In this document: positions 1-8,096 of the stretch, in pieces
How the letters are laid out: the number at the start of each line of letters is the position of its first letter
How positions within the stretch are numbered: position 1 is the first letter of the stretch
Source: Candidatus Omnitrophota bacterium
GTDB lineage: Bacteria; Omnitrophota; Gorgyraeia; Zapsychrales; JAHFFX01
Assembly: GCA_023247705.1 (NCBI GenBank)
Contig: JAHFFY010000004.1
Location: 2,561-66,560, forward strand
DNA length: 64,000 nucleotides
Direction: 5' to 3'
Notes under the pieces: generated by a model
Databases searched by the model: none
What the model was told of the DNA's origin: nothing
Seen by the model: the letters and a program-made list of their open reading frames with translations, nothing else
Position numbers and translations under genes: made by a program

Positions 1-53
1 GGTTCGGTCAATGGGCGGAAAAAGAGAAAGAACAATTCGGCTTACAGGACATT

Positions 54-3000
54 TTGCAAGGGATCACACGATTGGTGGTCACGCCCCAAGAAAGGAAGGT
101 CCTCGAGAAAGAGACCGGAGAGTTGCTCGGGGGCGATTTCGCCCTGGCCAGAAAGAATAAAGCGGTCGTCAAGTTAAGCAAAGTGGTCGGGTTGTCGGTC
201 TCGGTGGGTGTCGGTGGCGTTTGGTTATATCTGGCGAATGAGCGATCTCATTTAGCGCAACAGATCCCTTCCTCTGTGCAAAAGCCGATCACCTCATCCG
301 AAACTCCGCAGGAGAATTCCGCTCCACAAACCGAAGCGGCAAAAGAGACCGCTCTAGAAGAAAGTCAAAAATTAACCGGGTTGATGTCTTTGGTGGAAGG
401 ATCGAAGGTCAGCGATGAAGTCAATCGCGCAAATAAAGAGAGAGCGATTCAGAATGTCCAAGCGGAGATTGAGCGTTTGAAGAAATCGGCTCAAGAGGTC
501 GAACAAAAGACCACAACCGTCACCGCCGATGTCCAGCAGTCCCGTCAGCGAATAGAATCTGATTTTAATTCCAAAATAGAAGAATTAAGAGATTTAGCGG
601 GAAAACACGAGGGAGTAAGCCCGCATCATGTCGTCCCAACCGAGGAGAAATGGTATAAATTGAAGGCAACCAAAGAGGTGAAACTGGCATCTCAAGAGAA
701 GAAAGGTCAGGATGAATCAAAAGTGGAATTGAAAGGCGATGGCGGTCTGCGTACGGTTCCGACTGGTCATGGAGGCAGCGATTATTCCGGCCTCGGCACG
801 GAATGGGAGGCGAATTTTGAGAGTGCCTCGCCATTTTTGTCTTTAGGGAGTTTTACCCAGGTGAATTATACCAATGGGTATCTTGTCCCGCGTAAAAGCC
901 AACCGCAGGTGTGGTCCTTAAAGAAACAGGAAGTGACGCGGGAATGGGTAATCCAATCCTCCAAAGGAAAAAGCCAGCTGCAGCTCGCGGTCCCGCCGGG
1001 TTATGTGATTGTCGGTCTTGAAACCAAAGAGCTGGTGGAAGGAACCATTTATTATGACCCGGTCCATCAAACCTGGCATCTGGCCTCGGAACAAAATTCC
1101 AAACAAGTCAAGGTTTACGTCCGTAAAGCTAAACCGAGAGAATTGCCGGTCTATAAACAATCCCTTCTTTTAGTAAATGATCAAGGGCAGGCTTTAAGTG
1201 CGGCAGCGATTCAGACCGCTTTTCAAAAGGATTTCCCGAAGGAGATGCTGGACCTTTTCGATTTGGCCAAAAGTTTATCGCTGGAAGAGAAGCTGGAATT
1301 GCGTCGGATGCTTCTCGATCTCAAAATTTTTTATTATACCACCAATCCCTATTTGACCGATGTTACGAAGGGGATGACCCTGGTGCAAGAGATGTTTTTT
1401 ACCCTGGCGCATCAATGCAATGGTTTTGCTTCCTTTAACAGCATTCTCTCGTTTGCTTTGGGTATTCTCGAGAAAGAGTATGCCATGGATGGGTACTGGG
1501 ATACAAACGGGAGCAGATTTGTGACCAGAGGAAATGGACATAATTGGAACATGTCTCAGGGCAACGTATTGAATCAGCCGCAGATCGGCGAATCGTCTCC
1601 TTTTTATCAAAAGGTCGGCGTCACGGAGGCGGAATGGACCAGGGAAATAACCGAGGTGATTCTCCCCCGGGCCCAAAGACTGCGCGCACTTCTTCCCAAG
1701 ATGCTTGAGATGATCACATTGAGACGCGAGCAGAAAAAGATTGAAACGGCGATCCAGGCCGAAGAGGAAAAACTAAAAAAGGTGAGCGAAGAAAAGCCGG
1801 CCAGACAAGACGGTGAAATCAGCCCGTACTATAAAGACAATCAAGAGTACTATTTTAAGTTAGTCGCCGGTTATCAGGAAAAAATAACCCAGCTTAAGAG
1901 GGATACCTTAACCAAGGAGACGATGGCAACGTTGATTGATTGGGGCTCTGAATTCAGCCGGTCATTGGTGCGGGGAGCGGTGGCGCCCCAGGGCAAGGGA
2001 GGCAAAGGGGTAGAGACACTTCTTCCTTCTGGACAATTAAAAAATATCTTGAAAGGTCAGCCCAAGGATCAGTCGAAGTCCGGCGCTTTGTTTGTTTTTT
2101 ACAATCCCTATGAACTCATGGCCGCGACGGATTATGCCCTCGAGATGCTTTCGGAATTGAATAATAAATTGTGGCGATTTCCTGCCCCAGACTATCCCAT
2201 GATGGAGCGGATCGCGCAAGTTAAAAAAGACATCTTCACGGCGGTGAAGGCGTTTGCCCGTCAGAATAATTGGGAATTGTATGAGCCCTTGGTCATGGAT
2301 CCGATCCGCTTACAGGATGGGACGCTCACGGATTTGGCGGATGGTGGAAATGCCGCCACCCCAAGCTATCTCATTGACCGGCTCAATAAAGATGACAATA
2401 TAACGGATGGAAATGATCTGATGACTTTTGATCTTCGGGACACGTTGGTGGATTTTCAAAAGGATTTGTTTTTATTTAAGTACGAACAAGACGAACAGTA
2501 TAGCGGAGGCGTAAGAACCCGCGCAGCGGAAACGGGATATCATTTAAAGGGAAAAAGATCCGGCCAGTATAAAGACCGACGGATTCCGGCCTTAAATTTG
2601 TCGCTGTATAATTATCCGTTTCCGAATGAAGAATGGCTGGCGGTTGGAACTGATCCGAATGGTAAAACGTTTTTTTTGGGGCCGGTCGCTGAGCGGGAAC
2701 GGCTGAACGATTTGCCGACCGAGGTCCGCAAGGATTTATTTCTTTTACCTAAAAATATTTTTGTGCTCAATGGAGAATTATTGGTCTGGTACAGGGATTC
2801 TCAGGGGCAGTATCGTCTCGGGGGAAGTTATTCCGAACATCATCACTTAGCCGACCGCATTTTTTTTACGACCACCACCCTGAGACAGTTACCCAATGGA
2901 ACGGTCATGTTTTTTGGTTATGAAAATTCCCGCTGGAAGTTGTTTATTTTGGATAAAACTGCGGTCGAAGAAGTTGATTTGGATTCTGTGACGCAGGAAA

Positions 3001-6000
3001 GAGTCGCTAGTGTGCAGGAGTTTGCTGTTTATTCCGATGGGCGCTGGGCCACGGTGCTGACGTATCAATCGGGATTACAAGGATATTTTGGGACAAAAGT
3101 TAAGCAGGCCGGGCTTTTTGATCCGGCCGAACGTTATAAGATCGCACGTATTCCAGTTGAGACCCCACAGAAAGGAATCATCGCTGCAGTGGAAGACCAA
3201 GGTGGATCATACTATATCGAATTTGACAGCGATGTTATTGAGCAAATTTCCGAGATTAAAAACGATCAACATCTTTTGGGGGCAGAGAATCCCATCTTTT
3301 TCCCTAACGGAAGTCCGGCTTTTTTAATCCAGCGGCGCGATAGAAAGTGGGTATGGGTGAGTGATCGGGCCGGTGCATCAACGGTCTTAATGCGATATCC
3401 CCTGAACAGAGTATTGGGAACCGCCTCTGGGGCTTCCTTGGAAATTTCAAATCAGCATAAGACCAAAGACGGTCGCTGGGTTGCTGAGGTGGCTTTATCT
3501 AAACAACCTGGCGTGAGGGATCTAGATATTCCTATCCCGGGTGTAAGGGGAAGCTTCGTGATTTTACCTAACGGCGAATGGTTTATGCGTATGCCTTTTA
3601 AAAAGGTCGAGACGGCGATTCAAATGGGCCCTGCCGGTTCATCGACAACGACCGTTGAGAAGAATTATGTCCGGCTTTGGGGGTCATGGTATGAGAGTCA
3701 ACGATCTCACATTCTGGCCACAGACGAGATTTTTACGAACGTTTTTGATCCCATTTTCGCGGTTGGTCCCGATGGAAAGGCGGATGCGTCCCGTTACCTG
3801 TTACTCTATTCCAACGATGAGAACGGTGTGATTTGGAAGGTCAAAGGCCCGCTGGCGCCTTATGTGGGATTATCTGAACAGGAGAGTTATCAACTTGATG
3901 CAATACCTATTCAGGAGACAGCGGATGGACAGATTGTTTTAAATTTGGTTAAAATGGCTCCAGATGGAAATATATTATATAATTTTTCTCCTGTCGTGAA
4001 TCTTTTTCCCCGGAGCCATCATTTTCTGAATCGGGTTATCGCTTTATATAATATTCCGGTTTCAGCCGTTGATGCCAATGAACACATCCCAGAGGAACGG
4101 ATCGATCTGCGCTGGGAACATTTTTCCCGGCTGGTCCCGGCGATCGATGCGACATTGAATTCCCCTAACACCCTGGGGGCGGGAAATTACACGGAAACGT
4201 GGAGTTATCTGGGCGACCTTTTGATGGATATGGAAAACGATCCCAACGGGCGGTATTTTGATCCACAACGCGTCGCGGAAATCCTTCGTTCCTATAAAAA
4301 GATTGTGGCCCAGCTGCTGTTTCATTATTCGGATTCTTCAGCTCAAGACATCGTCAGCTTTAATGAGTTGAAGAGATATACCGATGTCTTGATTGATCAC
4401 GGACTGCATGAGGTGGTCGTTGAGATCTTGGAAGAACTCTACAAAATTCTTTTGAACAAAGAGGCAGAAAAGCCCGCGTCGATGACTTCGGCCAAAGACA
4501 TTGTTTCCCTCCTGACGCCGCAGCAATGGCGGAATGGTATTGAGGCCTATGAAAAATTTCTTCAGGAACAGTTCAAATTAGATAGACGGACCAAAAGCAT
4601 CTATCTGCATAAATATCATTTTGAACCCAGCGATCACCACCGGGTGGATGAATTAAATGCCTTTGCCTCGATTTTCCTGGATGATGCAGCAGTGAACAAA
4701 TTGAGCGGTTATGGGCAGAGGATTGATTCTCTGACGCAGTGGATTCAGGATCTCAATATTCCTTTCCAATATTCTTCGGTCAAGGCCGCCCCGGGATTGA
4801 AAGATATTTTTATCCTTTTACATCAAGGTTTAAAAGGGGATCGACGGAATTTTGATGTGGAGTTCACCCAAGAAACACGATCGAGCCTTTTGTATAAAAT
4901 GGTCAAACTCATCCGCGGCAATACCGATCGACTGAAAGTCAATCTTGCCCATCCGTTGGCGAGTACCGAAGAATATCTCCAGGAACGCCGGGACTGGGAT
5001 TGGGTCAATCAACGCATGACCCGGATGTTGGGGGATGATTTCAACGGCCCTCACAATATCGGGGATGTGGTCACGACATTGATTGAAGAAGCGCATCACG
5101 ATGCTGCGACGTTGTTTGTCTTGGCGGCTTTTTTAACTTTTGTCTCAAGTTTTTTTTCTGATTTCCTGCGCAGAAGAAATATCACCCTGAGCCAAAACCC
5201 CAAGAAAGTGGTGGAACAATTTATCGCAGAAAATCCCTGGCTGGAAGGCTGGGGCGAAGTCGAGGGGATCAAGGATTTTCTTTTAGAGATCTTGAAGTCG
5301 GGAAAACTGATGACCCCCGAACAAGAAGAAAGATTACGCTCGATCCGCCAGCAGACTTCTTCGAATGAAGATCGCATGATCATCGACGCGATTCTGGCAT
5401 TGCCATTTGAATATCCCGCGAAGTCCTCGATGAGTTTGACCGCGATGGGGTTGATTGTCGATCATCTCAATGGGGATACCACTATTGAGCCGTATCGAGA
5501 CCGTAAAAAAATGACCCAGGCCATTTTGGATTTGGTTGAAAATATTAAGGCCGGAAAAATTCCCATCAAAGATTTTTATCCCGAACTGCGCAAGATCATT
5601 TCCCGGTTTAGCCGTGAAGAGACATCTCTCCAGGAAGATCTGACCCCGGTCGCCTTTCAGGATTTGCAGTCCGGATTACAAAATAAAAAGAAAGACGCGC
5701 GTAAGGTCATGACCGACGGCAAAGAAATCATTTCATCCGAGTATGACGGCTATGTCTCAAAACAGACCGGAGCGGGAGTGGAATTTGCTGGGGTCAGGGA
5801 ATACCGGGCCGGAGACGATTGGCGGCGGATTACTTTCGCCAGCTTGGCCTCCATGGATGGCCCTCTCCAGGTGAAGGAATCCCAAAAGGAGACGAAAGTC
5901 TCGGCAGGGATCCTTCTCGATCTGCGCGCGCTCAATAACGCTGACAACCTGGAGCAGTGGACCGAGCAGCTAGCCAACTCGTTGAAAGTTTTATATAAAA

Positions 6001-6818
6001 AATTCAGGGATGGGCTTTCCAGCGGCGGTGATTTTCAACTGAAAGGGTTGATTGTGATTCTGCCGGATGGAAATTTAAAAGAAATAAAAATCGACCGGAC
6101 GTTTCAATATCTTGAACTGGCCAATGGGATTTTTAAGATTGTCGAAAATAATTTTCCGGTGGCGTTTCAGATGTTTCGGATGCAGATGAAGGCTAAGCAG
6201 CCGGAGTTTTATACTGCGGCGGAAAAAAAGCGCTACGCCCAGAGGACCAAAGGCCTTTGGAAAGGGGAATTGAGCCAGCAAAAATTGGGACAGATGCAAC
6301 AGCGCCTTAAGGCTGATAATATTTATTTTGTTGGGGTCGATGAATCCGAACATCAATCGTTGGTTCAAAGTTTTCCGCGGTCGCGTAGTTTTTATTGGAA
6401 AGGCCAGCGGGCATATTCGATTTTGCCCAAAGACCAGGACAAAACGTTGGAGGTGTTGGAATTGGAGCCCGGGGAGAGCGTGACGGCTGCGGCGGACCGG
6501 GCGCTGTTGAAACAATCTGACATCGAACATCCTGAATCTTCAGGGCAAGACCAGATTGCTGATAAAGCCTTGTTGACTGCTGTTAAACCGCCCCCCGGTG
6601 GTATCGATCTTAACCCGGACAACCTGGATCTGCAGACGCAAGGGGAAGGAATGAATTTGAACTTTCCTTTGGATCCCAAAAACCTCGAAGGGGTCCAGAT
6701 CAACGGTCTTACGCCGGTTATTTTAGAGATCACGCCCGTTTCCAACCTGCCTTTTCTTTTAGGGTTGGGTCTCTTGAAGACTGAGCAATTGAGTCTAACT
6801 TCAGAACGTCATAACTAA
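54..6818 (+). CDS. Giant protein of unknown function, at least 2254 aa, membrane-anchored. The reading frame is open to the 5' edge of the window, so the true start may lie upstream.
   Basis: Uninterrupted 6.7-kb ORF; the first start codon in frame is TTG at 54 and there is no in-frame stop upstream within the window. Hydrophobic segment VVGLSVSVGVGGVWLYLA near residue 45. E/K/Q-rich coiled-coil stretch around residues 90-200. Second hydrophobic segment ATLFVLAAFLTFVSSFF at nt 5104-5160. C-terminal region GAGVEFAGVREYRAGDDWRRI (nt 5766-5830) resembles the DUF58 signature. C-x-x-F-A-S motif AHQCNGFASF at nt 1407-1436. GC content matches the surrounding genes. Confidence 0.75.
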   Translation: MQGITRLVVTPQERKVLEKETGELLGGDFALARKNKAVVKLSKVVGLSVSVGVGGVWLYLANERSHLAQQIPSSVQKPITSSETPQENSAPQTEAAKETALEESQKLTGLMSLVEGSKVSDEVNRANKERAIQNVQAEIERLKKSAQEVEQKTTTVTADVQQSRQRIESDFNSKIEELRDLAGKHEGVSPHHVVPTEEKWYKLKATKEVKLASQEKKGQDESKVELKGDGGLRTVPTGHGGSDYSGLGTEWEANFESASPFLSLGSFTQVNYTNGYLVPRKSQPQVWSLKKQEVTREWVIQSSKGKSQLQLAVPPGYVIVGLETKELVEGTIYYDPVHQTWHLASEQNSKQVKVYVRKAKPRELPVYKQSLLLVNDQGQALSAAAIQTAFQKDFPKEMLDLFDLAKSLSLEEKLELRRMLLDLKIFYYTTNPYLTDVTKGMTLVQEMFFTLAHQCNGFASFNSILSFALGILEKEYAMDGYWDTNGSRFVTRGNGHNWNMSQGNVLNQPQIGESSPFYQKVGVTEAEWTREITEVILPRAQRLRALLPKMLEMITLRREQKKIETAIQAEEEKLKKVSEEKPARQDGEISPYYKDNQEYYFKLVAGYQEKITQLKRDTLTKETMATLIDWGSEFSRSLVRGAVAPQGKGGKGVETLLPSGQLKNILKGQPKDQSKSGALFVFYNPYELMAATDYALEMLSELNNKLWRFPAPDYPMMERIAQVKKDIFTAVKAFARQNNWELYEPLVMDPIRLQDGTLTDLADGGNAATPSYLIDRLNKDDNITDGNDLMTFDLRDTLVDFQKDLFLFKYEQDEQYSGGVRTRAAETGYHLKGKRSGQYKDRRIPALNLSLYNYPFPNEEWLAVGTDPNGKTFFLGPVAERERLNDLPTEVRKDLFLLPKNIFVLNGELLVWYRDSQGQYRLGGSYSEHHHLADRIFFTTTTLRQLPNGTVMFFGYENSRWKLFILDKTAVEEVDLDSVTQERVASVQEFAVYSDGRWATVLTYQSGLQGYFGTKVKQAGLFDPAERYKIARIPVETPQKGIIAAVEDQGGSYYIEFDSDVIEQISEIKNDQHLLGAENPIFFPNGSPAFLIQRRDRKWVWVSDRAGASTVLMRYPLNRVLGTASGASLEISNQHKTKDGRWVAEVALSKQPGVRDLDIPIPGVRGSFVILPNGEWFMRMPFKKVETAIQMGPAGSSTTTVEKNYVRLWGSWYESQRSHILATDEIFTNVFDPIFAVGPDGKADASRYLLLYSNDENGVIWKVKGPLAPYVGLSEQESYQLDAIPIQETADGQIVLNLVKMAPDGNILYNFSPVVNLFPRSHHFLNRVIALYNIPVSAVDANEHIPEERIDLRWEHFSRLVPAIDATLNSPNTLGAGNYTETWSYLGDLLMDMENDPNGRYFDPQRVAEILRSYKKIVAQLLFHYSDSSAQDIVSFNELKRYTDVLIDHGLHEVVVEILEELYKILLNKEAEKPASMTSAKDIVSLLTPQQWRNGIEAYEKFLQEQFKLDRRTKSIYLHKYHFEPSDHHRVDELNAFASIFLDDAAVNKLSGYGQRIDSLTQWIQDLNIPFQYSSVKAAPGLKDIFILLHQGLKGDRRNFDVEFTQETRSSLLYKMVKLIRGNTDRLKVNLAHPLASTEEYLQERRDWDWVNQRMTRMLGDDFNGPHNIGDVVTTLIEEAHHDAATLFVLAAFLTFVSSFFSDFLRRRNITLSQNPKKVVEQFIAENPWLEGWGEVEGIKDFLLEILKSGKLMTPEQEERLRSIRQQTSSNEDRMIIDAILALPFEYPAKSSMSLTAMGLIVDHLNGDTTIEPYRDRKKMTQAILDLVENIKAGKIPIKDFYPELRKIISRFSREETSLQEDLTPVAFQDLQSGLQNKKKDARKVMTDGKEIISSEYDGYVSKQTGAGVEFAGVREYRAGDDWRRITFASLASMDGPLQVKESQKETKVSAGILLDLRALNNADNLEQWTEQLANSLKVLYKKFRDGLSSGGDFQLKGLIVILPDGNLKEIKIDRTFQYLELANGIFKIVENNFPVAFQMFRMQMKAKQPEFYTAAEKKRYAQRTKGLWKGELSQQKLGQMQQRLKADNIYFVGVDESEHQSLVQSFPRSRSFYWKGQRAYSILPKDQDKTLEVLELEPGESVTAAADRALLKQSDIEHPESSGQDQIADKALLTAVKPPPGGIDLNPDNLDLQTQGEGMNLNFPLDPKNLEGVQINGLTPVILEITPVSNLPFLLGLGLLKTEQLSLTSERHN

Positions 6819-6917: not shown

Positions 6918-8096
6918 ATGAGCAAAGAATATTCTCCCTTTACGCCAGGGGTGCCTGTTCCCATAGATTTTTTTGTTGGAAGGAATCAAGAGTTAACAAC
7001 ACTGGTTGATAAAGCAAAAGCATCTTCGTCGGGTAAATTACAGTTGGCTTTTGTTTATGGCGAACGAGGCATTGGAAAAAGTTCTTTATGTCGTATGACA
7101 CGTGTTATTGCGGAAAGTCAAGCGGATATCTTGGGGGTACATGTTTTTCTGGGAGGGGTCGTATCTCTCCCAGAAATGGCGAGACGGATTTTTGAAAAAT
7201 TTCTTAATGAAAGTATTAATAGACCATGGTATGAACAGATTAGATCGTTTTTAGGAAAACATGTCAGGGAAGTGGGGTTATTTGGAGTTAATATTGAATT
7301 CGATGCTGACAAAAAGGAACTGAATCAGTTGGTTAATGGTTTCTCAACAGCGTTGAGGACGTTAGTTCAGCAACTAAAGGATAAAAAAGGGCTATTGATT
7401 ATTCTCGATGATTCAAATGGGCTGGCTAATTTGAAAGATTTTGCGAATTGGCTTAAAAGTCTGATTGATGAGATTTCGACATCCGATCAGCCGCTCCCTT
7501 TGTTCCTGGTCTTAGCTGGATTACCAGAAAGAAGATTGCAGCTTTTTCAATCTCAACCTTCTCTGATGAGGGTGTTTGATCCAATTGAGATTAAAAAATT
7601 ATCAGAAGAAGAGACAAAAAATTTCTACAGGCAATCATTTTCTAAGGTAGGAATCAGCATTAAAGAAGAGGAATTAGCGACCCTATGGCAATACTCAGGA
7701 GGCTATCCAGTTTTAGCCCATGAGATTGGAGACGCTGTTTTTAAGATAGACATGGATAATAATATTGATAAAGATGATGCTGTTAGAGGTATTGTTAAGG
7801 CGGCTCATGTTATTGGACAGAAGTATATAGAACCTCAAGTGTATGACGCGATCAGAAGTCAGAAATACCATTCCATTTTAAGAAAATTGGCGAGAGATCC
7901 TTTTGAAAGTCAATTTCGAAAAAAAGAAATAGCCAAAGATCTTAATGAAAGCGAAAAAAAAGTTTTTGATAATTTTCTTCAACGTATGAAGAAATTAGGG
8001 ATCTTAAAAGAAGATAAGGAAGCAGGATCAGGAGCTTATCAATTTACAAGCGATTTGCATTATTTGTTTATTTGGCTTCAAGCTCAGGGGAATTGA
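6918..8096 (+). CDS. AAA+ / STAND-type NTPase (Arch_ATPase / AAA_16-like) with a C-terminal winged-helix-like region.
   Basis: Walker A YGERGIGKSS. Walker B hhhhDD as LLIILDD. GGYP motif typical of the Arch_ATPase family. Roughly 36-38% GC, clearly lower than its neighbours. Confidence 0.7.
   Translation: MSKEYSPFTPGVPVPIDFFVGRNQELTTLVDKAKASSSGKLQLAFVYGERGIGKSSLCRMTRVIAESQADILGVHVFLGGVVSLPEMARRIFEKFLNESINRPWYEQIRSFLGKHVREVGLFGVNIEFDADKKELNQLVNGFSTALRTLVQQLKDKKGLLIILDDSNGLANLKDFANWLKSLIDEISTSDQPLPLFLVLAGLPERRLQLFQSQPSLMRVFDPIEIKKLSEEETKNFYRQSFSKVGISIKEEELATLWQYSGGYPVLAHEIGDAVFKIDMDNNIDKDDAVRGIVKAAHVIGQKYIEPQVYDAIRSQKYHSILRKLARDPFESQFRKKEIAKDLNESEKKVFDNFLQRMKKLGILKEDKEAGSGAYQFTSDLHYLFIWLQAQGN

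What the first reader, a model, noticed from the sequence alone, without database searches (positions are those of the whole stretch)
1407..1560. Possible transglutaminase-like (papain-fold) catalytic motif inside the giant protein
AHQCNGFASF resembles the Cys motif C-x-x-F-A-S of transglutaminase-like enzymes such as TgpA. A candidate His in GHNWNM lies about 40 residues downstream. In Pseudomonas, TgpA sits in a conserved triad with a MoxR ATPase and a DUF58 protein. If confirmed, this single polypeptide would fuse the TgpA and DUF58 modules of that triad, and the downstream ATPase would replace MoxR. This is speculative; no catalytic Asp was located by eye.
Basis: inference. Interest (0 to 1): 0.55.

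Follow-up and report, generated by a model that had tools for sequence, protein, structure and literature searches.

The report
TgpA-like transglutaminase domain, giant protein
The motif is real: it is the active site of a highly diverged transglutaminase-like (papain-fold) enzyme domain, closest to Pseudomonas TgpA, inside a 2,950-residue Omnitrophota membrane protein that also carries a DUF58 domain normally encoded by a separate neighbouring gene.

Summary
AHQCNGFASF (Cys472, nt 1416-1418) and GHNWNM (His513, nt 1539-1541) lie in a giant ORF (nt 3-6818, cut at its 5' end; full length 2,950 aa).

- Cys472 is the only cysteine in the whole protein.
- In 25 homologues (~26% identity) only four columns are invariant, and two of them are this Cys and this His.
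- The third triad position is Glu or Asp in 21 of 24 homologues and Asn524 here.
- An AlphaFold model (pLDDT 90) matches only the periplasmic domain of P. aeruginosa TgpA (Foldseek E 1.8e-6, prob 1.0).
- A profile-profile comparison with genuine PF01841 proteins gives 92% probability (E 6.7e-7), aligning Cys to Cys and His to His.
- The C-terminal module is DUF58: 11 of 12 family members hit PF01882.

The TgpA+DUF58 fusion is therefore supported. The idea that the downstream ATPase replaces MoxR is not. That ATPase is AAA_16/ATPase_2-type, and it is absent from all six homologue neighbourhoods examined. Canonical MoxR genes exist elsewhere in Omnitrophota.

Membrane topology and the actual chemistry (cross-linking or hydrolysis) remain inferred. 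This is a new variant of a known kind, of moderate interest.

The parts
3..6818 (+). Giant ORF, cut off by the 5' end of the window. It holds residues 680-2950 of a 2,950-aa protein (P0001, 100% identical over the queried 461 aa).
   Evidence: Window residue n corresponds to P0001 residue n+679.
183..239 (+). Predicted transmembrane helix TM1 (VVGLSVSVGVGGVWLYLAN). Its N-flank is basic (5 K/R in 15 residues).
   Evidence: Kyte-Doolittle scan and flank charges. An equivalent helix lies about 170-200 aa upstream of the module in nearly all family members.
762..1754 (+). TgpA-like two-domain module (window residues 254-584). It comprises a beta-sandwich (nt 804-1175), a helical linker plus transglutaminase-like core (nt 1200-1616) and a long C-terminal helix (nt 1626-1751).
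   Evidence: Alignment A1. AlphaFold2 model: pLDDT 90.2, pTM 0.88. Foldseek vs PDB: 6g49 and 6g4h (TgpA periplasmic domain), E 1.8e-6 and 6.4e-6, prob 1.00, about 300 aligned columns.
1407..1560 (+). The reported span, running from the Cys motif AHQCNGFASF to the His motif GHNWNM.
   Evidence: hhalign of A3 vs PF01841 proteins aligns this stretch to GVCQD.AH...LGIPARYVSGYL...HAW.
1416..1418 (+). Predicted catalytic nucleophile Cys472 (P0001 Cys1151). It is the only Cys in the protein and sits at the N-terminus of a helix.
   Evidence: Invariant in 25/25 sequences. Single Cys. Model helix 219-232 starts at this residue. Aligned to Pfam PF01841 position 54/55 in four homologues and to the catalytic Cys of PF01841 proteins.
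1539..1541 (+). Predicted catalytic His513, on a beta-strand.
   Evidence: Invariant in 25/25 sequences. Model strand 259-265. Aligned to PF01841 position 91 in four homologues and to the HAW His.
1572..1574 (+). Predicted third triad residue Asn524, just after the next beta-strand.
   Evidence: Column composition is E15, D6, N2, P1 (the P is a probable misalignment). The residue follows model strand 268-270. This assignment is inferred: the profile alignments stop before this residue.
5112..5168 (+). Predicted transmembrane helix TM2 (LFVLAAFLTFVSSFFSDFL). Its N-flank is acidic and its C-flank is basic (RRRNITLSQNPKK).
   Evidence: The helix is conserved at the start of alignment A4.
5730..6407 (+). 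DUF58 (vWA-like) module. Its signature GAGVEFAGVREYRAGDDWRRITF lies at nt 5793-5930.
   Evidence: The window protein alone scores only 13.6-13.7 bits against PF01882 (GA 23.4). However, 11 of 12 aligned family members hit PF01882 (best E 2.7e-11). P0012 scores 28.2 bits. PF01882 is precomputed for P0002 and P0009. tblastn of a homologue's module hits annotated DUF58 genes next to MoxR in 104 plasmid records.
6612..6773 (+). C-terminal tail GGIDLNP...GLTPVILEITPVSNLPFLLGLGL, shared with many Omnitrophota proteins that carry the N-terminal 'head' domain.
6918..8096 (+). Downstream P-loop ATPase (AAA_16/ATPase_2/nSTAND1-like) with a C-terminal winged helix. It is not MoxR and is not a conserved partner.
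   Evidence: It is absent from the homologue contexts.

Best explanation
Window nt ~762-1754 encode a highly diverged member of the transglutaminase-like (papain-fold) superfamily. Like the periplasmic domain of P. aeruginosa TgpA, it is built from a beta-sandwich followed by a Cys-His core.

The reported motif is its active site. Cys472 sits at the N-terminus of a helix and would be the nucleophile. His513, on the adjacent strand, would be the general base. Asn524 (Glu or Asp in relatives) would orient the His. By analogy with the superfamily, the Cys would attack a peptide-bound glutamine carboxamide or an (iso)peptide bond to form a thioester. That intermediate is then resolved by an amine (cross-linking) or by water (deamidation or proteolysis). 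Which of these occurs is not known.

The domain lies between two transmembrane helices of a 2,950-aa Omnitrophota protein. Charge bias at both helices places it outside the cytoplasmic membrane, as in TgpA. It places the C-terminal DUF58 (vWA-like) module in the cytoplasm, where DUF58 proteins normally partner MoxR ATPases. The protein thus fuses two of the three parts of the known MoxR-DUF58-transglutaminase gene triad into one membrane-spanning chain. A MoxR partner, if there is one, is encoded elsewhere.

Status of each step:
- Shown: homology, fold, conservation of Cys and His, and the DUF58 fusion.
- Inferred: catalytic competence, topology, substrate, and any MoxR coupling.
For: - Exhaustive phmmer found 30 relatives, nearly all giant proteins.
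- Only Asn448, Cys472, Gly497 and His513 are invariant among 25 aligned members.
- Cys472 is the sole Cys in 2,950 aa. Relatives have 1 Cys in 2,963 aa, 2 in 4,625 and 3 in 6,765.
- PF01841 is the only Pfam family hit by more than one member (6 of 25, best E 0.0031), and always in the same register: Cys at profile position 54/55, His at 91.
- hhalign of the core profile against 43 genuine PF01841 proteins gives probability 92%, E 6.7e-7, with Cys-on-Cys and His-on-His.
- The AlphaFold2 model has pLDDT 90.2. Foldseek vs PDB finds only TgpA 6g49/6g4h significant (E 1.8e-6, prob 1.00, about 300 columns), and the next hit has E 0.18.
- DUF58 module.
- Topology.
- TgpA's periplasmic domain (aa 180-544) has transglutaminase activity in vitro, and tgpA is co-transcribed with PA2875-PA2874 (PMC3507681).
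- MoxR-DUF58-transglutaminase clusters are described in PMC12067865.
Against: - The window protein itself gives no PF01841 hit, and no homologue reaches the gathering score (best 18.5 vs 23 bits).
- Foldseek TM-scores are modest (0.46-0.52, rmsd 8.6 A), and no other transglutaminase structure scored significantly.
- The third residue is Asn here rather than the family-typical acid. Its assignment rests on the family alignment and the model's secondary structure only. I could not measure triad geometry.
- The N-terminal segments of family members look like Sec signal peptides. With a single helix before the module, that would put the module in the cytoplasm, contradicting the charge-bias topology.
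- No activity data exist.
Confidence: 0.8

Rival explanations
1. The domain has the transglutaminase-like fold but is a non-catalytic scaffold or binding module, like Rad4 or EPB42.
For: - Sequence divergence lies below Pfam thresholds.
- The third triad residue varies (E/D/N).
- The hairpin between His and the third residue is shorter than in PF01841: 11 vs about 16 residues.
Against: - Inactive relatives characteristically lose the Cys and/or His. Here both are invariant in 25/25 sequences at about 26% identity.
- The Cys is the only one kept in several multi-thousand-residue proteins.
Confidence: 0.1
2. Same enzyme domain, opposite topology. The N-terminal segment is a cleaved signal peptide and the head domain is exported. 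The TgpA-like module then faces the cytoplasm, and the DUF58 module and tail lie outside.
For: - Sec-signal-like N-termini occur in several members, for example MKVPIIIILVFAFIANGLALPSAGAQE.
- Only one clear hydrophobic helix separates the head from the module in P0001.
- A 2026 preprint reports SP+TM as a common predicted architecture of Omnitrophota giant proteins (10.64898/2026.06.07.730766).
Against: - The N-flank of TM1 is strongly basic (5-7 K/R in 15 residues) in most of 22 members, and the C-flank of TM2 is basic.
- TgpA's domain is periplasmic (PMC3507681).
- DUF58 proteins accompany the cytoplasmic MoxR ATPases (PMC12067865).
Confidence: 0.3
3. The giant protein and the downstream ATPase (6918-8096) form a reduced MoxR-DUF58-TgpA system, with this ATPase taking MoxR's role.
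For: - The ATPase is on the same strand with a 99-nt gap, and no terminator-like site lies between the genes.
- P0002 also has an orphan P-loop ATPase as a neighbour (AAA_14+DUF4143, upstream).
Against: - The ATPase matches AAA_16/ATPase_2/nSTAND1, not AAA_3.
- The two neighbouring ATPases belong to different families and sit on different sides of the giant gene.
- Four other contexts have no adjacent ATPase of this kind. P0009 has only an MgsA/RarA-type AAA two genes downstream.
- Canonical MoxR exists elsewhere in Omnitrophota.
Confidence: 0.07
4. The Cys...His spacing is a chance resemblance in a non-enzymatic region.
For: No Pfam, NCBIfam or PDB sequence hit for the window protein.
Against: - Shuffle frequency is 0.3%.
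- Cys and His are invariant.
- hhalign gives 92% probability.
- Foldseek gives probability 1.0 to TgpA.
Confidence: 0.01

Closest known systems
TgpA (PA2873) of Pseudomonas aeruginosa; PDB 6G49/6G4H
   Same: - It is the only significant structural match, and the match covers both the beta-sandwich and the Cys-His core.
- In both, the domain lies between transmembrane helices.
- TgpA's genetic partners are PA2875 and PA2874 (co-transcription: PMC3507681). From my own knowledge, not tested here, these are a MoxR-type ATPase and a DUF58 protein. Here the DUF58 partner is part of the same chain.
   Different: - No DUF3488 multi-helix N-terminal domain and no DUF4129. There is a single helix before the module.
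- About 15% sequence identity.
- The hairpin between His and the third residue is shorter, and the third residue is Glu/Asp/Asn rather than Asp.
- The domain is embedded in a 2,950-aa protein with about 1,000 further residues of unknown fold before TM2.
- No adjacent MoxR.
Pfam PF01841 Transglut_core (transglutaminase-like superfamily, papain-like clan)
   Same: The C-x-x-[FW]-A helix start, the L-G-I-P...G-Y segment and the H-x-W strand all align in register.
   Different: All scores are below the gathering threshold. The window protein is not detected at all by the Pfam model.
MoxR-DUF58-transglutaminase gene triads (for example the bifidobacterial PFNA cluster) and Bat-type MoxR-DUF58-VWA operons
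   Same: The same two non-ATPase components (a DUF58 and a transglutaminase-like enzyme) are functionally linked. Canonical MoxR-DUF58-VWA operons are present in Omnitrophota and on plasmids.
   Different: Here the DUF58 and transglutaminase-like parts are fused in one membrane-spanning polypeptide, and no MoxR gene is adjacent.
Omnitrophota giant proteins (bioRxiv 10.1101/2023.11.21.568195 and 10.64898/2026.06.07.730766)
   Same: Same phylum, very long membrane-associated proteins, with a signal-peptide-like N-terminus plus transmembrane helices.
   Different: The main text of neither preprint mentions transglutaminase, DUF58 or MoxR. This protein (2,950 aa) is smaller than the giants they focus on.

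Membership tests
Transglutaminase-like superfamily (PF01841; papain-like fold) | Nucleophilic Cys at the N-terminus of a helix, in a G-x-C-x-x-[FW]-A-like motif | tested here: met
   HQCNGFA. Cys is invariant in 25/25 sequences. The model helix starts at the Cys. It aligns to the GVCQD.AH Cys of PF01841 proteins.
Transglutaminase-like superfamily (PF01841; papain-like fold) | Catalytic His on a beta-strand about 40-45 residues downstream (H-x-W) | tested here: met
   GHNW, 41 residues after the Cys. Invariant. Aligned to HAW. Lies on model strand 259-265.
Transglutaminase-like superfamily (PF01841; papain-like fold) | Third triad residue (Asp; Asn in papain) on the following strand | tested here: inconclusive
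   The column holds E15, D6, N2 and Asn524 in the window protein. The spacing is shorter than in PF01841, the profile alignments end before it, and geometry could not be measured.
Transglutaminase-like superfamily (PF01841; papain-like fold) | Significant match to the family profile | tested here: inconclusive
   Pfam hmmscan: no hit for the window protein, and homologues score 14.6-18.5 bits, below GA 23. Profile-profile (hhalign) against 43 PF01841 proteins: 92% probability, E 6.7e-7.
Transglutaminase-like superfamily (PF01841; papain-like fold) | Fold similarity to a solved member | tested here: met
   Foldseek: 6g49 at E 1.8e-6, prob 1.00, TM 0.46/0.52.
Transglutaminase-like superfamily (PF01841; papain-like fold) | Thiol-dependent transamidase or hydrolase activity | not testable with these tools
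   Needs biochemistry.
TgpA-type proteins (DUF3488 + Transglut_core) | N-terminal DUF3488 multi-pass membrane domain preceding the periplasmic domain | tested here: not met
   No PF11992 hit on P0001. Only one hydrophobic helix lies upstream of the module.
TgpA-type proteins (DUF3488 + Transglut_core) | Beta-sandwich plus transglutaminase core forming one extracytoplasmic unit between membrane helices | tested here: met
   The fold match spans about 300 columns of the 288-residue 6g49 chain. TM helices lie on both sides. The extracytoplasmic location is inferred from charge bias only.
DUF58 (PF01882) | Match to the PF01882 profile, including the signature G-x-G-x-E-F-x3-R-x-Y-x-x-G-D-x-x-R-x-I-D-W | tested here: met
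   11 of 12 family members hit (best E 2.7e-11), and P0012 scores 28.2 bits, above GA 23.4. The window protein alone is sub-threshold (13.7 bits) and reads GAGVEFAGVREYRAGDDWRRITF. Membership rests on homology of the whole C-terminal region (E 1e-44 to 1e-62).
DUF58 (PF01882) | Genomic association with a MoxR (AAA_3) ATPase | tested here: not met
   No AAA_3 gene lies next to the window gene or next to six homologues.
MoxR AAA+ ATPase (PF07726), for the downstream gene 6918-8096 | AAA_3 and AAA_lid_2 domains | tested here: not met
   The best hits are AAA_16, ATPase_2 and nSTAND1. Genuine Omnitrophota MoxR proteins score 218 bits on AAA_3.

The most novel reading that the evidence does not exclude
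The fusion may act as a 'Rosetta stone' for the long-unexplained MoxR-DUF58-transglutaminase triads. It would imply that DUF58 and TgpA-type enzymes normally work as one trans-membrane unit. In that unit a cytoplasmic vWA-like DUF58 domain, possibly remodelled by a MoxR ATPase encoded elsewhere, controls a Cys-His enzyme acting on envelope proteins or peptidoglycan outside the membrane. In Omnitrophota this unit has been built into a head-and-tail-framed family of very large envelope proteins.
Probability: 0.3. Interest if true: 0.65.

Novelty: new variant of a known kind. Interest (0 to 1): 0.5.

Why it matters
TgpA is essential in P. aeruginosa, yet its substrate is unknown, as is the reason it travels with DUF58 and MoxR genes. 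DUF58 itself has no known function. A natural fusion places a TgpA-like domain and a DUF58 domain on opposite sides of one membrane helix. That is independent genetic evidence that the two act together physically, and it gives a single-chain system in which to study the coupling.

The result also assigns a first plausible enzymatic function to a family of Omnitrophota proteins of 1,600 to 7,700 aa that standard annotation leaves blank. Finally, it shows that a divergent branch of the transglutaminase-like superfamily, often with Glu as the third residue, escapes the current Pfam model.

Tried and rejected
- **Pfam, NCBIfam and PADLOC** on the whole giant protein and on seven pieces: nothing except a sub-threshold DUF58 hit.
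- **Word-indexed homologue searches** with the region and with alignment A1: no hits. In the one search that returned hits, every hit was shorter than about 170 aa, so giant proteins are probably missed.
- **Sequence searches against the PDB** with the region, with A1 and with the core profile A3: only noise. The 1,000-aa middle region also gave noise only.
- **Single-sequence AlphaFold2:** unusable, pLDDT 40.
- **Genome-contig scan** with the region: no relatives. A1 was too divergent to derive search patterns.
- **Upstream sequence:** contigs carrying the neighbouring ATPase do not extend upstream of the window, and P0001 has no recorded encoding contig.
- **Foldseek against viral structures:** nothing significant.
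- **Plasmid route to a TgpA-type gene:** I followed DUF58 tblastn hits into plasmids, but the four operons inspected were MoxR-DUF58(-VWA) types without a transglutaminase gene.
- **Regex for canonical transglutaminase motifs** in all fetched loci: none.
- **Cys distribution per topological segment** as a clue to compartment: uninformative, because Cys is depleted everywhere.
Full report
**The observation.** The + strand, frame 3, is one open reading frame from the window's first base to nt 6818. Cys472 is nt 1416-1418 and His513 is nt 1539-1541, 41 residues apart. An exhaustive phmmer search of 1.84 billion representative proteins found a 2,950-aa protein (P0001) that is 100% identical over the queried 461 aa. 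The window therefore holds its residues 680-2950. Cys472 is the only cysteine in those 2,950 residues. A relaxed form of the motif arises in 0.3% of shuffles.

**Homologues and conservation.** Standard libraries see nothing in this protein. Pfam, NCBIfam, PADLOC and PDB sequence searches are empty apart from a sub-threshold DUF58 match. The exhaustive search found 29 further relatives at 24-32% identity. Nearly all are very large proteins of 1,600-7,700 aa, or fragments of such proteins. In a 25-sequence alignment over window residues 254-584 (A1), only four columns are invariant: Asn448, Cys472, Gly497 and His513. Eleven to twelve residues after the His, after a short strand, the column is Glu in 15 sequences, Asp in 6 and Asn in 2, including Asn524 (nt 1572-1574) of the window protein. 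Several relatives keep almost no other cysteine: 1 in 2,963 aa, 2 in 4,625 aa, and 3 in 6,765 aa.

**Is it a transglutaminase-like fold?** Four independent lines agree.
- When each of the 25 members is scanned against Pfam, PF01841 (Transglut_core) is the only family hit by more than one member: 6 of 25, best E 0.0031.
- Four core segments hit it in the same register. The invariant Cys lies at profile position 54/55 and the invariant His at 91 of 108.
- I collected 114 genuine PF01841-annotated proteins, using a consensus-like bait only as a fishing device, and aligned 43 of them (A5). hhalign of the family core (A3) against A5 gives 92% probability, E 6.7e-7. HQ-C-NGFA falls on GV-C-QD.AH, LGIL..EYAMDGYW on LGIPARYVSGYL, and G-H-NW on H-AW.
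- AlphaFold2 with A1 gives a confident model (pLDDT 90.2, pTM 0.88). In it the Cys starts a helix, the His lies on a strand, and Asn524 follows the next strand.

Foldseek against the PDB returns exactly two significant hits, both the periplasmic domain of P. aeruginosa TgpA. They are 6g49 (E 1.8e-6) and 6g4h (E 6.4e-6), each at probability 1.00 and aligned over about 300 columns, so they cover both the N-terminal beta-sandwich and the catalytic core. The next hit has E 0.18.

Caveats:
- TM-scores are modest (0.46-0.52).
- No Pfam score reaches the gathering threshold.
- I could not measure triad geometry.

**The rest of the protein.** Comparison of P0001 with its relatives shows three conserved blocks: residues 1-350, about 420-1314 (containing the TgpA-like module) and about 2130-2950.

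The last block, aligned for 12 members (A4), has the consensus PNG....R.G.G.EF...REY.PGDD.R.IDW.A.AR.GK..VKE.......SILVDMR.
- Eleven of twelve members hit PF01882 (DUF58), best E 2.7e-11.
- P0012 scores 28.2 bits, above the 23.4-bit cut-off.
- PF01882 is precomputed for P0002 and P0009.
- tblastn of one such segment finds annotated DUF58 genes beside MoxR genes in 104 plasmid records.
- The window protein's own DUF58 match is weak (13.7 bits, nt 5793-5930), so its membership rests on homology of the whole region.

The polypeptide does, therefore, fuse a TgpA-like module and a DUF58 module.

**Topology (inferred).**
- A hydrophobic helix lies about 170-200 residues upstream of the TgpA-like module in nearly all members. 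Its N-flank holds 5-7 Lys/Arg in 15 residues, and its C-flank is neutral.
- A second helix directly precedes the DUF58 block. Its N-flank is acidic and its C-flank is basic.
- The positive-inside rule therefore places the TgpA-like module outside the cytoplasmic membrane, as in TgpA (PMC3507681). It places DUF58 in the cytoplasm, where its usual partner MoxR resides.
- Against this, many members start with a Sec-signal-like segment. With only one helix before the module, that would invert the picture.
- I could not resolve this and give the TgpA-like orientation roughly 60-70%.

**The ATPase.**
- The gene at 6918-8096 follows after 99 nt with no terminator-like site between. It matches AAA_16, ATPase_2 and nSTAND1 with a C-terminal winged helix, and does not match AAA_3.
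- Homologous giant genes in six other contexts have different neighbours:
  - P0002: an AAA_14+DUF4143 ATPase upstream.
  - P0003 and P0012: toxin-antitoxin genes downstream.
  - P0006 and P0009: housekeeping genes.
  - P0008: only short, unannotated flanking ORFs.
  - None has this ATPase or a MoxR beside it.
- Genuine MoxR(AAA_3)-DUF58-VWA operons do occur in Omnitrophota, including the MAG that encodes P0003.
- The 'ATPase replaces MoxR' idea is therefore not supported. A MoxR supplied in trans remains possible.

**Organism and wider family.** The window is ordinary bacterial chromosome, with genes for DnaK/DnaJ, LptD, LipA, PanD, Def and sugar-nucleotide enzymes. The N-terminal ~350-aa 'head' of P0001 has more than 580 matches in GTDB species representatives. 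Nearly all of the 80 listed are MAGs labelled Omnitrophota or 'uncultured Planctomycetales'; a few carry other labels. None of the 80 fetched loci carries the TgpA-like module. The TgpA-like/DUF58 proteins are thus a small branch of a large Omnitrophota paralogue family. The main text of neither of the two preprints on Omnitrophota giant proteins mentions transglutaminase, DUF58 or MoxR.

**Mechanism and verdict.** The most likely reading (about 0.8) is a catalytically competent Cys-His-(Asn/Glu/Asp) enzyme of the transglutaminase-like superfamily. It would form a thioester with a glutamine side chain or an (iso)peptide bond of an envelope substrate. It is tethered to the membrane and covalently linked to a cytoplasmic DUF58 domain. 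Whether it cross-links, deamidates or cleaves is unknown. TgpA itself shows transamidase activity in vitro (PMC3507681), while other PF01841 members are peptidases (PMC10318531).

The domain is not a TgpA orthologue: it has no DUF3488, about 15% identity, and a different architecture. It is a new, very divergent variant of a known enzyme kind in a new fusion architecture. Interest is moderate, chiefly because the fusion is genetic evidence that DUF58 and TgpA-type enzymes act as one unit across the membrane.

Noticed in passing
P0001 residues 1-350 (upstream of the window); alignment A2; loci L007-L086: A conserved ~350-aa N-terminal 'head' domain (50-60% identity between paralogues, 94 invariant positions in 7 sequences, no Pfam hit) occurs at more than 580 places in GTDB species genomes. 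Nearly all of the 80 listed are Omnitrophota-type MAGs. The 80 fetched loci hold 107 head-bearing ORFs, often several per genome and in tandem. The bodies that follow differ: GNAT, methyltransferase and PRTase domains in L046, an HATPase-like domain in L069.
   Followed up: partly
window 6612-6773; C-termini of head-bearing ORFs in L007-L086: A ~55-65-aa C-terminal tail, GGIDLNP..L.LQ...G.G...(variable)...GF.PVIINI.P..NLP.LLGL, ends 60 of 77 complete head-bearing ORFs, and also ends the window protein. Head plus tail frame a large Omnitrophota-specific protein superfamily. This could be a sorting or anchoring signal. Neither Pfam nor NCBIfam reported a match covering the tail of the window protein.
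   Followed up: partly
window 1416-1418 (Cys472): The full 2,950-aa protein contains a single cysteine. Relatives are similarly depleted (1 in 2,963 aa, 2 in 4,625, 3 in 6,765), and the depletion is spread over all topological segments.
   Followed up: yes
L046 9935-20190; L069 9794-20626: In two of the 80 Omnitrophota loci, a head-and-tail giant gene is followed directly by a canonical MoxR (AAA_3). In L046 the MoxR is followed in turn by DUF58 and a VWA protein. This may be coincidence or a wider link between this protein superfamily and MoxR systems.
   Followed up: partly
window 6918-8096: An orphan P-loop ATPase (AAA_16/ATPase_2/nSTAND1-like, weak BrxD-like matches) with a C-terminal winged helix. 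It lies 99 nt after the giant gene, and its function is unknown. P0002 instead has an AAA_14+DUF4143 ATPase immediately upstream.
   Followed up: partly
L005 14696-15429; L006 10008-11628: The homologues P0003 and P0012 are each followed by a toxin-antitoxin-like pair: nucleotidyltransferase plus NTase_sub_bind, and an unknown gene plus AbiEii. P0003 is also preceded by another ORF of more than 1,756 aa whose end overlaps its start.
   Followed up: no
window ~2100-5100 (residues ~700-1700 of the window protein): About 1,000 residues lie between the TgpA-like module and TM2. They have beta-rich, repeat-like segments (recurrent 'DG.W', 'PNG..') and no detectable relative in Pfam or PDB sequences. 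A beta-propeller is possible, but this was not modelled.
   Followed up: partly
The search for homologous proteins behaviour: The word-indexed protein search returned none of the giant family members, even when queried with an alignment of them. In the one search that returned hits, every hit was shorter than about 170 aa. Negative results from that tool for very long proteins should not be read as absence.
   Followed up: no
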